A stretch of 64,000 bases of DNA. Origin: Convolutriloba macropyga (taxonomy: Eukaryota). Location of the stretch: contig NC_134469.1 in NCBI RefSeq assembly GCF_964194025.1, forward strand, positions 17,484,001-17,548,000, in the 5' to 3' direction. Of the stretch, positions 12,001 through 18,000 are shown piece after piece. A program made the position numbers. Position 1 is the stretch's first letter; each line of letters starts with the position of its first letter.

Positions 12001-15000
12001 CTCGCTTTGATAGCTGCGTTTGAACTGCTGCTTGATTTTCCGCTTGCAGCTGGTTGATGAATTGAAGTAATTCCCGCCTCCTCTCTTTCCCTACTTTTAC
12101 AGCTCCCGGTATTCTCTTCTATTTTAGCTCCACCTTATGTTTATTGGTTGCGTGTTTTCAGTTTTGAGCTCACCAATTGTGTACCACTTAATCTCAATTT
12201 TTGGTTCTGTCTCTTGTTCTCTTTTGTGTTTCAGATGCATGTTTAATGTGTTTTCGTCGAAAAATATAAAACAAGGTCTTAAACTCAACATGTGATTTTT
12301 TGCGATCCAAATGATGTTGATGTTCGACTTCATTAATTCTGATGAGAAGGTGCAAGGAAAACCCCTTTCATTTGTGAACTCAGTCGTGAATTTACAGTGA
12401 CTAAATAAAACTCTCATTTGATTCAATAGACTATGCGCACCATTCACTATAAAGGTCCAATTTAAAGCAGTCAATATGAATTATTTGTGATAGGTGCAGT
12501 GGAGGTAGGGTACAGGTAGAGGGAGTGGGATGAAGGGGAGGGAGGGCGAGGAAGGAGGAGGTAGAGGGAGGGGGAGGCGGAGTGCAGGTACAGGTAGCGG
12601 GAGGTAGGATGGAGGTATACGGAGGGGGAAGGAGGTAGAGGGGATGGAGGTAGATTGGAGGTAGAGGGGATGGAGGTAGATGTGGAGATAGAGGGAGGGA
12701 GTGGGAGGAGGCAGGTAGGGGATTACGCACCTAATTGACTTCATTCACTAAGTGGTCCCTTTTAACCAAGTAAAAATGTTAATGCACAGAGTAATCATGC
12801 TATAATCTTATTTCTGCTAATTTCCGCTAAAATAAGTTCTGTTAAAATCATAGATTCATGTTCGTCATTAAAATTTTCCCTCTATGATTTTCGGCCTTTT
12901 ATCGTTAGCGACAAATTTAATTGCCACTAGATTGGAGTTAAGCGCGAGTAAACATGCCCTTAAAAAATAAGGTGGTTCTAATTGCTGCTGAGATCAAAGA
13001 CAGGCAGCATTTTGCCTTGAGCAGTTAGAGGTCAACCGGCACATTGCCTAACGCAGTTTAACAGCAGTCTGTCTGAAATGCATGAGCAGTGTAAACAAAT
13101 CGAACGGCTCATAGGGCGCAAAATAGCTATTTATGGTGAAGTGGGACCAAACCAGAGTAATGCCTCGCACAAAAAACATGCTATTTTTACTATTATTTAC
13201 CACTGTATTTAAATACATGCTAGGTCCGGGCACTTTTCATTTCTTAAGAATTTTGTCAAACAAGTGAACTTTTAAAAACAATCTAAGGTCTTATCATGTT
13301 TGGTCATTATCTCGATGGGTGTTAATTTACCACAATTTTAGCAATTGACTTATTCCAGCTTAGCAAAACAACTGAACACATGGTTTTAAAAAAATTTTCT
13401 TGATCTTTTTCATTGCTTTATATCACAAAGTCGCAGTCAAGGGTCACCAGTTCCTAGTATTTATACACGGATCATATATATGAATAAAAACATATTCGGT
13501 ATTGAGTGTTAACAATCGGAAGTATCTAAATCACGTTTTATTAACAATTTTTCATCGCTCAAAATTTTTTATTGCTCTGAGTGTTTGATTTTTGTTTTGC
13601 CGTATATAGATACCCCTACCCCACAATTTTTTTATAAAATGTGGTTTGTTGCTTTCCAAAAAGTGCCAACAGATCTGGAAATTGAAAAATTAAACGTGAC
13701 GCGATATTTCCTAATAGCACTAAAAAAAGGGTGGTTCTAATCGCTGCTAAGATCAAAGACAGACAACATTTTGCGCTGAGCAGTTAGAGGTCAACCGGCA
13801 CATTGCTTAACGCAGTTTAACAGCAGTCTGTCTGAAATGCATGAGCAGTGTAAACAATTAGAACGACTTATAGGGCGCAAAATAGCTTTTTATGGTTAAG
13901 TGGGACCAAACCAGAGTAAGGTCTCGCACAAAAAACTTGTTGTTTTCACTATTATTTACCACTGTATTTCAATACGTGCTAGGCCCGGGCACTTTTCATT
14001 TCTTAAGAATTTTGTCAAAGAAGTGAACTTTTAAAAACAATCTAAGGTCTTGCCATGTTTGGTCATTCTCTCGATGGGTGTTGATTTACCACAACTTTAG
14101 CAATGGACTTATTCCAGCTTAGCAAAACAACTGAATACATGGTTTTAAAAAAGTTTTCTTGATCTTTTTCATTGCTTTATATCACAAAGTTGCAGTCAAG
14201 GGTCACCAGTTCCTAGGTTTTATACACGGATCATATATATGTATAAAAACATATTCGGTATTGAGTGTTAACAATCGGAAGTATCTAAATCACATTTTAT
14301 TAACAATTTTTCATCGCTCAAAATTTTTTATTGCTCTGAGTGTTCGCTTTTTGTTTGGCCGTATATAGATACCCCTACCCCACAATTTTTTTTACAAAAA
14401 TGTGGTTTGTTGCTTTCCAAAAAGTGCCAGCAGATCTGGAAATTGAAAAATGAAACGTGACGCGATATTTCCTAATAGCACAAAAGAAAATACCTACATT
14501 TAAACAAATATTTTACCTGGTGTGTTGAACCCAGCTCTTGCGGAGGAAACCGCATCCCACTTGATTTCGAAGTAGTCGAACAAACAGAAGCAGTGATCCT
14601 CGGTTCGATTCCGAGGTCCTCCAAAATTATCACACACAATTACAACTTGGTAGCTGTTGACCTCGTCAAGTAGACCTGGATATCGACTGTTTTTGTAGAA
14701 TGTTACGACATACGCAAACGATGCTTCAAAATTAGGCTCAAAGTCGTCAATTAGATTGGTCAAAATGTCCAAGTCACTCTGAGATGTCACTTCCCGTTTC
14801 ATGATGTTATTGACAAGGTTCGCATACTTAGTGGTGTTTCGGCCCATCAAGAGAAGCGTCAATTCGTCGTCTCGTCGGACGTTCAACTCGGATGCTCTGA
14901 ATGACATCGCATTCCAGTCTTCAATTGCCTGCTCCAAGTTCGGATCGCCAACATATGAATTTAGATAGTGATTATAGAAACCAGTAGAATAATGATCCAA

Positions 15001-18000
15001 ACGGTGATAAAGATCACAGATGTTTTCTCTCCAACCTGGGTAACTGGAATTGAAGCAGCCGTAATCGAAAATGTTTTCTTCAATGTCAGCGTCATCCAAA
15101 AACGGAGTTATGAATGTGTTTGAGGAAGACCACGACAGCATTGAATTGCCACTTCCAAGCGAGATATGACCATTCGTGCATACGTACAAGGAGTCAAATG
15201 TCAGGGTTCCAAAGCGAAATCTTCGACTTAGAAACTGTTCGTTCGAACAACCGTCGTCCATTTTTATGGTGAAACTGTCGTTGTGTTTGGGTCCAAAAGG
15301 AAGCACAAACGGCTCCGGCAAATCAGACAGATCAATTGGTGCCACGGTGACAGGGGTTGTTTTTGGTTCCGTTGCAACGTTTACAAAGTTCCCGTCTGGA
15401 TATTGGTTGAGTCGGAACAAGTAGATCCCGGGGATGCCACAGTTGCTTTCAACTGGAAGTTGAAAAATGTCTGAGGTTCTCGACTCTTCCAGCTCGAACA
15501 CATGATCTGAACAAATTAGTAGTTTGAAGCCAATTTGTAATAATCTTAGATTTTTTTTAAGATTTCGTCAAAATCTTAATTTGACTAATTGGACGAATTT
15601 GACGTCAGCAGCCAATATTGAAGATATGTATTATTTCTTGCTAATATTTGCGGAGAAAAAGTAATTTCATCATTTAAAACTAGGTCAGCTATAATAAGCT
15701 TTAGTATAATTAATAGAGCTGGTGGCATAATTACAAGTCAGGGCAAGAGAAAACATCTAGAAGATCATAGCGGGTGACCAAAGAATATTGCTGTTTCAAT
15801 TATCTACAAACTTGAAATATTTGCTTTTGATAAACAGTTATTGAGTTTCAAGTTGAAATGCGTATGTATTCTATTAATTTGGGGAGAAACTTTATAAAGC
15901 GATTTGCAACATTTGTTGGAACCGAAAACGTCAATGACAAAAAACCTAATGAAAAATGAAAAAAGGGAGCTCGTGCAACCTCAACTTTTATTCTATTGGG
16001 CCACCTCAGAAATAATCAAATTTTCTGAATATTTTTCTCTTTGAGCTTCGTTACAATCGATCAAAATTTGGATTACATTTTTTCAGTTACAGAATTTAGC
16101 ATAGGGGAAGTCGCAATGAAAAAATACAAAGTTGTTGGAGTGAGCAGCAAAACCAACCTCAAACAATATGTTTTTTAAATTCGTCAAATCATCATTTTAT
16201 TTTTGAAATTTTGAAAGTAAATATCATATCACCTTCAAAACTCTCCACGCAGAAAGCTATTTTATAGGAGAATGTTACATGGGGAGTTAGCCGGTGATAT
16301 TTCCTCGATTTGATTTACTCTCTCAGTTATTATCGAAACCTGAGTCAAACTTCTAGAGTTTTTACTAGTCAGTACTACAGACTAATTGAGCATCAATTAC
16401 TGCGACGGTAATGTACAGTATAGTGGATAATACAGTTCACAAGCGCTAACAGCAAAAACCTAATATCCACACTAACTTGAAAACTCTGAAACGAATTGGG
16501 TAGTGAAAAGCTATCCTCGTCATTGATAGGAGATCATCCGTTACATAAAAAAATTGAAATGAATTGACAAAGAGATACTTCTACTTCACAACCTAATTTG
16601 CCTATTGATTGCCATTGTTAGAATCCATAAGAAAAAAAAGTTGAGAAGATATCAGTGAAATAGTTATGTCTTCTCATATGTTCTGACCTTACGATTAAGG
16701 CACCACATGGTTGCAAAAGAACACATGGTGGCAAAAGATCCCATTTTTCTACTTACATTCACTTTTGAATCCCATTCTGACCGTTAAGTCTCTGGGGTAC
16801 TCTATTTCGAAGTAATCATACAGAGCGAAACAATTGTCCTCTTCTCTGTTCACACCACCTGCTTCGTCACACGTGATCACAGCCTGAAAACTATTCGCTA
16901 GATCTACAAACCCATAGTATTCTTTTATTTTGTAGTAGGTGACCGCGTATGCAAAACTGGCGTTAAAATATGGCTCAAAATGGGACAAAATGTCAGAAAG
17001 AACTTGGAAATCGGTTTCATTAGTAACTTCCCGCTTCATAATATTGTTTGCCAAGTTGGGGTACTTCGTAGTGTTTTTATTCATGATGAGCAAAGTTAAG
17101 TTGTCGTCATTATGCACATTCAAATCTTCAGCAAGAATTGGCGTTTGCTCCCAGTTTTCAACAACAGGTTGCAACAAAGGATCGTAAACGTCTCCAATGC
17201 TTTGATAAAACTGTGAGTAATTACCATTAGGGCCATTTTGAAGCAAAAGAAAATAATACGCACAAATTGGTTCATTAATGTAATTGTTCACTTCATATTC
17301 AGTCAAAGTGTAGTTAAGACCTTGAAGAAAGTCAAGAATATAATGAATTGAATCCAAGCATTCGTAATCAAAGAGGTTGTCAACGATAAAAGTGTCAGCA
17401 AAAAATGGGGCAATAAACACAGCGCTAGAAGAAATGAAAGATTCATCGGGGTCATAGCTTGAGTAATCGTAGCCAAAAGATATGTACCCGTTGTTACAAA
17501 CGTACAAAGAATCATATCTGTCATCGCCGAATCGAAATGACCTTGTCATGTTCTGCTCCGGGGAGCACCCTTCATCGTTTTTCAGGTTGAAAGTGTCACC
17601 CGCTTTCGGTCCAAATGGTAACGCGAACGGTTCCGGCAAATCTCGAGTTAAACCACTGGCGTGACTTTCGGAAAACAAAGCAGTTATTGCGAAAATCAAC
17701 CCAGGCAATAAAATAATTTTAAACCGGGACTTGACAAAATGTCCCATTTTTGATCAGCTTAAAAAGTAATCTGCTCAAATATGCTTTCGTAACGGCAAAA
17801 TTGCGGTTTTAATATCTATTCAAACTAGCTAAACTAACCAAATTTATAACTTTTAAAACTCTTTGCGTAATATAATTGATGGGAGAGTTCTTGGCAAGTC
17901 TCGCGCATTCTTAGTCTGCAATTTAAAATATAAGTTTGACCACTGGACCGCTGATAACAAAAAACTGGTTAAATAATAAGCGATTTTAAATAATAAACTG

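What the first reader, a model, noticed from the sequence alone, without database searches (positions are those of the whole stretch)
14517..17747. Two apparent paralogous ORFs are exons of one tandem-NIDO gene built from a symmetric, domain-permuted exon
Seen: exon 1 ends at phase 1 after GFKSE. Splicing to the acceptor at 15507 restores the missing NIDO C-terminus in frame. Exon 2 is 990 nt (phase 1-1) and ends at the homologous position after GFNTP. The repeat unit is therefore [end of domain n + linker + most of domain n+1]. Known: NIDO usually occurs once per protein (nidogen, alpha-tectorin, SNED1, MUC4). Inference: a poly-NIDO secreted or surface protein expandable by exon duplication, with frame-preserving exon skipping able to yield chimeric domains.
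Basis: partly seen in the sequence, partly recalled or inferred. Interest (0 to 1): 0.66.

Follow-up and report, generated by a model that had tools for sequence, protein, structure and literature searches.

The report
Two exons of a tandem-NIDO gene
Two similar open reading frames in an invertebrate genome are most likely consecutive exons of one secreted protein with repeated NIDO domains, a fairly ordinary extracellular-matrix type of gene whose intron sits inside the domain instead of between domains.

Summary
Two minus-strand ORFs (16749-17753 and 14500-15567) are 46% identical (E 7e-82). Both exceed Pfam's NIDO cut-off.

Reading them as exons of one gene is well supported in silico:
- ORF 2 has no start codon or signal peptide.
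- Its first 33 residues match NIDO profile positions 154-185. Both exons break off at about position 150.
- A full-length relative (P0009) carries the two pieces contiguously and in the same order.
- The same "domain end + linker + next domain start" unit recurs in 10 of 150 database representatives.

No transcript data exist. The exon needed to finish the second domain is not in the 14.5 kb downstream. The window therefore shows about 1.8 domains, not a "poly" protein.

The premise that NIDO occurs once per protein is weak. DEX-1 has two, and 27 of 150 representatives have two to fifteen.

The contig is not human: it carries an intact BEL/Pao element.

Interest is modest.

The parts
16757..17747 (-). 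Exon 1 (991 nt, ends in phase 1). It holds the ATG, a signal-peptide-like N-terminus and the first four fifths of NIDO domain 1, including a roughly 125-aa insert.
   Evidence: Sequence and ORF. Pfam NIDO 34.8 bits; aa 79-119 match profile 1-39 and aa 245-296 match profile 58-112. There are 7 N-x-S/T sequons and 6 Cys.
17655..17747 (-). Putative signal peptide (aa 1-31, MGHFVKSRFKIILLPGLIFAITALFSESHAS).
   Evidence: Read by eye; no signal-peptide predictor was available. In the AlphaFold2 model of exon 1, residues 1-30 have block pLDDT 46-54 and form a lone helix at 15-35.
15507..16756 (-). Intron 1, 1250 nt, phase 1, GTAAGT...CTAATTTGTTCAG.
   Evidence: It contains only three weak ATG-to-GT candidates (17-24 aa) for an alternative first exon.
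14517..15506 (-). Exon 2, 990 nt, symmetric phase 1-1.
   Evidence: Pfam NIDO 45.0 bits in 3 stretches. 87% identical over 100% of its length to P0001 from a related genome.
15400..15504 (-). C-terminal piece of NIDO domain 1 (exon 2 aa 1-35, ...SNCGIPGIYLFRL...).
   Evidence: Pfam profile 154-185 of 186, E 0.0083 when scanned alone. A local model of C-pieces gives E 4.4e-14, the only hit among 3413 window ORFs. It aligns to P0009 residues 316-349. 31 of 34 residues are identical to P0001.
15325..15399 (-). Inter-domain linker (exon 2 aa 36-60).
   Evidence: pLDDT is below 50 for aa 35-56. P0001 has a 16-residue indel here.
14518..15324 (-). First four fifths of NIDO domain 2 (exon 2 aa 61-329), paralogous to exon 1 aa 36-329.
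   Evidence: 46% identity. Pfam profile 1-44 and 47-141.
14511..14516 (-). Donor GTAAAA of the next intron. If it is read through, the frame stops 5 codons later.
   Evidence: The read-through tail of P0001 differs in length and sequence from the window's.
12963..14489 (.). Two tandem copies of a roughly 760-bp unit that start directly after the exon 2 donor. This is non-coding flank or intron, not a further exon.
   Evidence: 92-93% identity, spacing 759-761. The read-through tail of P0001 matches both copies.

Best explanation
This is the 5' part of one gene for a secreted, glycosylated extracellular protein with NIDO domains in tandem.

Gene structure. Exon 1 encodes the start codon, a signal peptide and NIDO domain 1 up to about profile position 150 of 186. 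A 1250-nt phase-1 intron follows. Exon 2 (990 nt, phase 1-1) encodes the last 35 or so residues of domain 1, a variable linker of about 25 residues, and domain 2 up to the same position. The intron therefore lies inside the domain, and the repeating exon is offset from the repeating domain.

The NIDO domains belong to a subfamily with an insert of about 90-125 aa between profile positions about 40 and 50.

Domain 2 must be finished by a further exon. That exon is not in the 14.5 kb of repeat-rich DNA downstream, so the gene either runs off the left edge of the window or is truncated.

Shown: the sequence features, the domain mapping and the recurrence of the unit elsewhere.

Inferred: the splicing itself, secretion, and a role as matrix or surface scaffold by analogy with other NIDO proteins. 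NIDO has no established biochemical function.
For: 1. ORF 2 has no Met before residue 101 of its 355 and no signal peptide, whereas ORF 1 has both.

2. The Pfam NIDO pieces are complementary. Exon 1 covers profile 1-39 and 58-112. The last 130 aa of exon 2 reach profile 141 eight residues before the exon end. The first 33 aa of exon 2 match profile 154-185.

3. P0009 is a 1068-aa relative with NIDO, a weak AMOP match and VWD. It is contiguous across the junction. Exon 1 aa 37-317 align to its residues 25-292 (E 3e-40), and exon 2 aa 4-37 align to its residues 316-349 (E 2e-4).

4. Both paralogous exons end at the homologous residue in phase 1, followed by GTAAGT and GTAAAA. The acceptor has a CTAAT branch-like motif, a pyrimidine run and CAG.

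5. The intron position looks conserved. 34 representatives have an insert-bearing N-part that reaches the model end. 28 of them stop within 35 aa after it. In 5 of the other 6, a C-piece follows directly.

6. Ten of 150 representatives are proteins of 500 aa or fewer with a C-piece in the first 60 aa followed by an N-part (sequences seen).

7. The C-piece is as conserved as the rest against P0001: 31 of 34 identical, versus 247 of 269 in the N-part. The linker carries a 16-aa indel.

8. Complex test with the exon 1 N-part and exon 2 aa 1-40 as two separate chains: weak support. The score was 0.48 and the best of 3 controls 0.03. The runs agreed in at least 67% of contacts, and the partner's pLDDT was at least 42. 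The mark was reached by 51 of 78 solved complexes and 2 of 108 mismatched pairs. At 0.60 or under, however, it was reached by only 5 of those 78 solved complexes and by all 4 mismatches that passed, of 180.
Against: No transcript or junction read was available.

No third exon was found:
- 0 of 143 minus-strand ORFs of 30 aa or more in 1-14520 hit NIDO at E up to 10.
- tblastn with 150 relatives gave no NIDO match outside the two exons.
- The C-piece model's next best hit had E 1.1.

The C-piece alone is below Pfam's cut-off (16.6 versus 25 bits).

82 of 567 GT/AG pairs keep the frame open.

No ortholog of exon 1 at about 87% identity turned up beside P0001.

None of the 150 best representatives is a spliced model with two insert-bearing NIDO units, so the tandem form of this subfamily has no annotated precedent in that list.

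The AlphaFold2 model of exon 2 alone places its own C-piece strand with block pLDDT 85, which also fits the circular-permutation rival. Exon 1 folds confidently without any C-piece (pLDDT 82.9), so fold confidence does not discriminate between readings.
Confidence: 0.8

Rival explanations
1. The two exons are spliced as proposed, but the gene is a truncated remnant. Repeats and retroelement debris replaced its 3' part, so domain 2 is never completed. The product would then end in a partial domain, or the locus is a pseudogene.
For: No completing exon lies in 14.5 kb. That stretch holds a 760-bp tandem duplication, a purine-rich tract, a decayed BEL/Pao piece (Peptidase_A17 at 7156-7629) and a 1.09-kb tandem repeat. 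Reading through the exon 2 donor gives a stop after 5 codons.
Against: Both exons keep open frames of 330 and 329 codons, in DNA where the 99th-percentile ORF is 97 aa. Exon 2 is 87% identical to P0001, with indels confined to the linker. The GT donor is kept in P0001's read-through ('GK'). Long repeat-filled introns are common in animal genomes (general knowledge).
Confidence: 0.15
2. The ORFs are two independent tandem paralogous genes, each with its own transcript. ORF 2 would use an undetected small first exon.
For: Exon-1-like ORFs with their own signal peptide occur singly in the databases (P0002 and P0005; P0055, P0058, P0060, P0081 and P0100). Three ATG-to-GT phase-1 candidates lie in the 1250-nt interval.
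Against: ORF 2 would begin with an orphan NIDO C-terminal piece, and ORF 1 would lack one. The candidates are 17-24 aa, lack a convincing hydrophobic core, and two of the three have poor donors. Relatives place N-part and C-piece contiguously.
Confidence: 0.05
3. Circular-permutation reading. Each exon-2-type unit folds on itself, with its own leading C-piece packing onto its own N-part. Exon would then equal a permuted domain, as in a classical class 1-1 module.
For: AlphaFold2 on exon 2 alone gives pTM 0.82. It models a strand at aa 27-31 in a block of pLDDT 85, between disordered segments 1-17 and 35-56. The 25-41-aa linker is long enough to allow it.
Against: The N-part of exon 1, and of all signal-peptide-bearing exon-1-type relatives, would be left without a C-piece. 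All 5 full-length relatives of the subfamily have the canonical order, N-part then C-piece. Model coordinates could not be inspected, so the packing itself was not seen. The C-piece with the exon 1 N-part gave a weak pass: score 0.48 and best of 3 controls 0.03, with the calibration counts given in the For line of the best explanation.
Confidence: 0.07

Closest known systems
DEX-1 of Caenorhabditis elegans (PMC6325711, passages read)
   Same: An extracellular protein with two nidogen-like (NIDO) domains in one chain. It can act as a secreted protein in apical matrix.
   Different: DEX-1 also has an EGF-like domain, a zonadhesin-like region and a transmembrane domain, none of which is seen in the window. 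Whether its NIDO domains carry the insert or the intradomain intron was not tested.
NIDO-AMOP-VWD surface proteins (MUC4 and SUSD2 recalled; Mesh/AgMESH from bioRxiv 10.1101/2021.05.07.443077, passages)
   Same: P0009 is the nearest full-length relative with the same insert-bearing NIDO. It has a signal peptide, NIDO, a weak AMOP match (E 0.004, below cut-off), VWD, a Ser/Thr-rich stretch and a hydrophobic tail.
   Different: Those proteins have a single NIDO. The window has two N-parts in tandem and no AMOP or VWD exon within reach.
Unnamed poly-NIDO proteins in public predicted protein sets (P0003, P0109, P0007, P0017, P0026)
   Same: They have a signal peptide and NIDO domains in tandem separated by short Ser/Thr-rich linkers. 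Pfam counts 15, 8, 6, 5 and 5 NIDO stretches (P0003 and P0007 sequences).
   Different: Their NIDO domains are canonical, about 185 aa without the 90-125-aa insert. Their gene structures and organisms are unknown here.
Class 1-1 exon-shuffling modules of metazoan extracellular proteins (PMC8001218, passages)
   Same: The unit is a symmetric phase 1-1 exon in an extracellular, mainly beta domain protein, and it has been duplicated.
   Different: In the classical case the phase-1 introns lie at domain boundaries. Here they lie inside the domain, at about profile position 150 of 186, so the exon is offset. That paper does not mention NIDO (0 occurrences).

Membership tests
NIDO domain (Pfam PF06119) | Score above Pfam's gathering cut-off (25 bits) | tested here: met
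   Exon 1 scores 34.8 bits and exon 2 scores 45.0 bits, each scanned alone.
NIDO domain (Pfam PF06119) | Coverage of the whole profile (1-186) by one domain | tested here: inconclusive
   Domain 1 is covered only across the inferred splice: profile 1-39 and 58-112 in exon 1, and 154-185 in exon 2. Domain 2 reaches only profile 141 in the window. The joined model was not scanned.
NIDO domain (Pfam PF06119) | Extracellular context (signal peptide, glycosylation sequons, conserved cysteines) | tested here: inconclusive
   The hydrophobic N-terminus was read by eye. There are 7 and 4 N-x-S/T sequons. Six Cys are invariant in the 4-sequence alignment. No signal-peptide predictor was available.
Single transcription unit with tandem NIDO domains | In-frame GT-AG junction with consensus signals joining the two ORFs | tested here: met
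   16757|GTAAGT ... TTGTTCAG|15506, phase 1 on both sides.
Single transcription unit with tandem NIDO domains | Transcript evidence for the junction | not testable with these tools
   No RNA data were available. The only relatives found are ORF-style calls or unnamed models.
Single transcription unit with tandem NIDO domains | A downstream exon that completes domain 2 | tested here: not met
   None was found in the window. 0 of 143 ORFs matched. tblastn with 150 relatives found none. The C-piece model hit only exon 2 among 3413 ORFs.
Class 1-1 (symmetric) exon module | Exon length a multiple of 3, flanked by phase-1 introns | tested here: met
   990 nt, phase 1 at both ends, given the predicted sites.
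Class 1-1 (symmetric) exon module | Introns at the domain boundaries | tested here: not met
   The boundaries fall at about NIDO profile position 150 of 186.

The most novel reading that the evidence does not exclude
The insert-bearing NIDO subfamily may be built from interchangeable phase 1-1 cassettes of 'C-piece + linker + N-part'. Exon duplication, loss and alternative skipping would then produce arrays of variable length, with chimeric NIDO domains whose two parts come from different cassettes. That would be a way to diversify a surface or matrix recognition protein.
Probability: 0.08. Interest if true: 0.6.

Novelty: new variant of a known kind. Interest (0 to 1): 0.3.

Why it matters
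The importance is modest, in three respects.

1. Annotation. Public protein sets hold these exons as separate "proteins" read through splice sites: P0001, P0004 and at least eight more. Such entries misstate domain order and completeness.

2. Evolution. This is a clean example of a tandem domain array that grows by duplicating an exon offset from the domain. It departs from the usual rule that class 1-1 introns flank domains (PMC8001218, passages).

3. It flags a NIDO subfamily with a well-ordered insert of 90-125 aa (pLDDT mostly above 80). My searches found no description of it.

NIDO itself has no established function, so no mechanism is unlocked.

Tried and rejected
- Search for longer relatives of exon 2 found none.
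The organisms of P0001-P0151 remain unknown to me, and I did not try to trace them.
- The Atlas search returned only generic NIDO clusters, top score 0.90.
- Foldseek of the exon 2 model against the PDB gave 0 matches at E up to 0.001. A PDB sequence-profile search gave 0 matches at E up to 1. No solved NIDO-like structure could therefore be used.
- The scan for alternative first exons in intron 1 found three weak candidates only.
- The regex motif scan for C-pieces was too strict and was replaced by a local profile.
- Pfam on 96 further ORFs of 62 aa or more in 17.8-64 kb found no host gene, only an RVT_1 fragment and one sub-threshold chance match. The neighbourhood gives no functional context.
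- TRF missed the long-period arrays because its period limit is 500; the repeat finder was used instead.
- The AlphaFold2 model of exon 1 alone is as confident as that of exon 2, so fold confidence says nothing about which pieces belong together.
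Full report
**What is there.** On the minus strand lie two long open reading frames, 16749..17753 (334 aa) and 14500..15567 (355 aa). They are 46% identical over 298 aligned residues (E 7e-82). Only three of 3413 six-frame ORFs in the window reach 160 aa: these two and a BEL/Pao retrotransposon ORF. The 99th percentile is 97 aa.

The first ORF starts with ATG at 17747, three codons after an in-frame TGA. It opens with a hydrophobic, signal-peptide-like stretch, which I read by eye. 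It ends GFKSE plus one base before GTAAGT, so exon 1 is 17747-16757, 991 nt.

The second ORF has no Met until residue 101. A CTAAT motif, a pyrimidine run and CAG end at 15507. From 15506 the frame runs 990 nt to GFNTP plus one base before GTAAAA at 14516.

**Domain mapping, exon by exon.** I did not build, search or fold the joined exon 1 + exon 2 model; every search used single exons or parts of them.
- Pfam NIDO (PF06119, cut-off 25 bits) scores 34.8 bits on exon 1 and 45.0 bits on exon 2.
- Exon 1 aa 79-119 match profile 1-39, and aa 245-296 match profile 58-112.
- Exon 2 aa 233-321 match profile 47-141, eight residues short of the exon end.
- The first 60 aa of exon 2, scanned alone, match profile 154-185 of 186 (E 0.0083, 16.6 bits, below the cut-off on its own).

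Both exons therefore stop at about profile position 150, and exon 2 resumes at about 153. The pieces abut.

Between profile positions about 40 and 50, both copies carry an extra 90-125 aa that Pfam does not cover.

**Independent support for the junction.** A profile of the two exons and two first hits was searched against 1.84 billion representative proteins. It found 974 proteins at E up to 0.001 and 19 at E up to 1e-30.

P0009 is a 1068-aa model with NIDO, a weak AMOP match, VWD, a Ser/Thr-rich region and a hydrophobic tail. It has the same insert-bearing NIDO in one piece. Exon 1 aa 37-317 align to its residues 25-292 (E 3e-40). Exon 2 aa 4-37 align to its residues 316-349 (E 2e-4). The two alignments are collinear and do not overlap.

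34 representatives have an insert-bearing N-part that reaches the end of my local model. 28 of them stop within 35 aa after it, as ORF calls that hit an intron would. In 5 of the other 6 a C-terminal piece follows directly. The model was built from many of these same sequences, but the tail lengths are independent of it.

Ten of 150 representatives are proteins of 500 aa or fewer that begin with a NIDO C-terminal piece and continue with an N-part (seen). P0004 is one of them: 48% identical to exon 2 over 334 aa, with the same two ends.

P0001 is 87% identical to exon 2 over its full length. It conserves the C-piece (31 of 34) as well as the N-part (247 of 269), has a 16-aa indel in the linker, and diverges right after the donor.

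The exon 1 N-part and exon 2 aa 1-40 were given to the complex test as two separate chains. The verdict was weak support:
- Score 0.48; best of 3 controls 0.03.
- The runs agree in at least 67% of contacts; the partner's pLDDT is at least 42.
- The mark was reached by 51 of 78 solved complexes and 2 of 108 mismatched pairs.
- At 0.60 or under, it was reached by only 5 of those 78 solved complexes and by all 4 mismatches that passed, of 180.

**What is missing.** Exon 2 leaves domain 2 unfinished, and nothing in the window finishes it.
- 0 of 143 minus-strand ORFs of 30 aa or more in 1-14520 match NIDO at E up to 10.
- tblastn with all 150 relatives finds no NIDO match outside the two exons. 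The only notable outside hits are P0001's read-through tail on an intronic repeat, E 4e-4 and 7e-4.
- A local profile of 51 C-pieces hits only the start of exon 2 (E 4.4e-14) among 3413 ORFs on both strands; the next best hit has E 1.1.

The downstream 14.5 kb is repeat-rich. It holds a 760-bp tandem duplication that starts right after the donor, a purine-rich tract, a decayed BEL/Pao piece and a 1.09-kb tandem repeat.

So the window shows one complete and one incomplete domain. Whether the gene goes on beyond the left edge or is truncated cannot be told here.

Frame compatibility alone is weak evidence: 82 of 567 GT/AG pairs stay open. No transcript data were available. No ortholog of exon 1 at about 87% identity was found. 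No representative among the best 150 is a spliced model with two insert-bearing units.

**How it most likely works.** The product is a secreted, N-glycosylated protein (7 and 4 sequons; six conserved cysteines) with tandem NIDO domains joined by a flexible linker (pLDDT below 50 for aa 35-56).

AlphaFold2 gives confident models of each exon alone:
- Exon 2: pLDDT 79.4, pTM 0.82.
- Exon 1: pLDDT 82.9, pTM 0.83.

In both models the insert is mostly helical and well ordered. No solved structure resembles them.

NIDO is described as an extracellular domain of unknown function (bioRxiv 10.1101/2021.05.07.443077, passages). A matrix or apical-surface scaffold role is therefore inferred by analogy only.

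**Comparison with what is known.** Tandem NIDO is not new. DEX-1 has two nidogen domains (PMC6325711, passages). 27 of 150 representatives have 2 to 15 C-pieces. Pfam counts at least 2 NIDO stretches in 17 of 24 proteins that I had picked for having many matched stretches or for length.

Symmetric phase 1-1 exons are the rule for shuffled extracellular modules (PMC8001218, passages). There, however, the introns flank the domain.

Two things are specific here: the insert-bearing NIDO subtype in tandem, and the exon offset from the domain. I found no description of either:
- searched 'NIDO domain' and 'two nidogen' (109 papers, 25 listed).
- searched 'NIDO domains', 'nidogen domains' and 'DEX-1' (4 papers).
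- searched six phrases. None of the 25 listed papers held 'tandem NIDO' or 'NIDO repeats'. The hits for the counting phrases were mainly nidovirus papers or other unrelated uses of 'nido'; the two that held 'NIDO domains' concern nidogen-1 and SNED1.

A NIDO orthogroup enriched in bivalves is reported (PMC8059625, passage).

**Origin.** I do not take the contig for human. It carries an intact BEL/Pao element (Peptidase_A17, RT and integrase in one 2271-aa ORF). The nearest Atlas clusters for that element are commonest in arthropods, which is a lead only. The organism stays undetermined. The look-up of names and sources of the relatives could not be made.

**Verdict.** The one-gene, offset-exon reading is well supported in silico (about 0.8). 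'Poly-NIDO', exon skipping and the rarity premise are not supported by what is in the window. Interest is modest.

Noticed in passing
window 38958-45773 (+): An apparently intact BEL/Pao LTR-retrotransposon polyprotein in one 2271-aa ORF. It matches DUF1759 (gag-like), RVT_1, Peptidase_A17, integrase zinc-binding and core domains, and DUF5641.
   Followed up: partly
window 12963-14489: Two tandem copies of a roughly 760-bp unit (92-93% identical) begin directly after the exon 2 donor. The read-through tail of the related ORF P0001 matches the start of both copies. P0004's tail shows a similar 'ICRVTFN' motif by eye. This intronic sequence therefore seems to travel with the exon.
   Followed up: partly
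window about 21,600-29,900: A large tandem array with alternating start-to-start spacings of 964 and about 729 bp. It has at least 9 copies at 94-100% identity. It lies upstream of the gene, beyond the N gap at 19947-20146.
   Followed up: partly
window about 170-4100: A roughly 1.09-kb tandem repeat with three copies at 97-99% identity. It carries near-identical 98-117-aa ORFs on the minus strand with no Pfam match.
   Followed up: partly
window 7156-7629 (+) and 54350-54652 (-): Decayed retroelement pieces: a Peptidase_A17 (Pao) fragment (E 4e-6) in the stretch downstream of exon 2, and an RVT_1 fragment (E 2e-7) far upstream.
   Followed up: no
exon 1 aa 120-244 (window about 17016-17390) and exon 2 aa 145-232 (about 14809-15072): The NIDO domains carry a 90-125-aa insert not covered by the Pfam profile. 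It has two near-invariant cysteines and is mostly helical and confidently modelled. 44 of the 151 relatives examined share an N-part of this length.
   Followed up: partly
window 12518-12721: A purine-rich (GGA/GAG-like) low-complexity tract. It reads as proline/serine-rich ORFs on the minus strand. No Pfam match.
   Followed up: no
window 36943-37699 and 49356-50123: Two short tandem arrays: period 349 (or 174) with 2.2 (4.3) copies, and period 336 with 2.2 copies.
   Followed up: no
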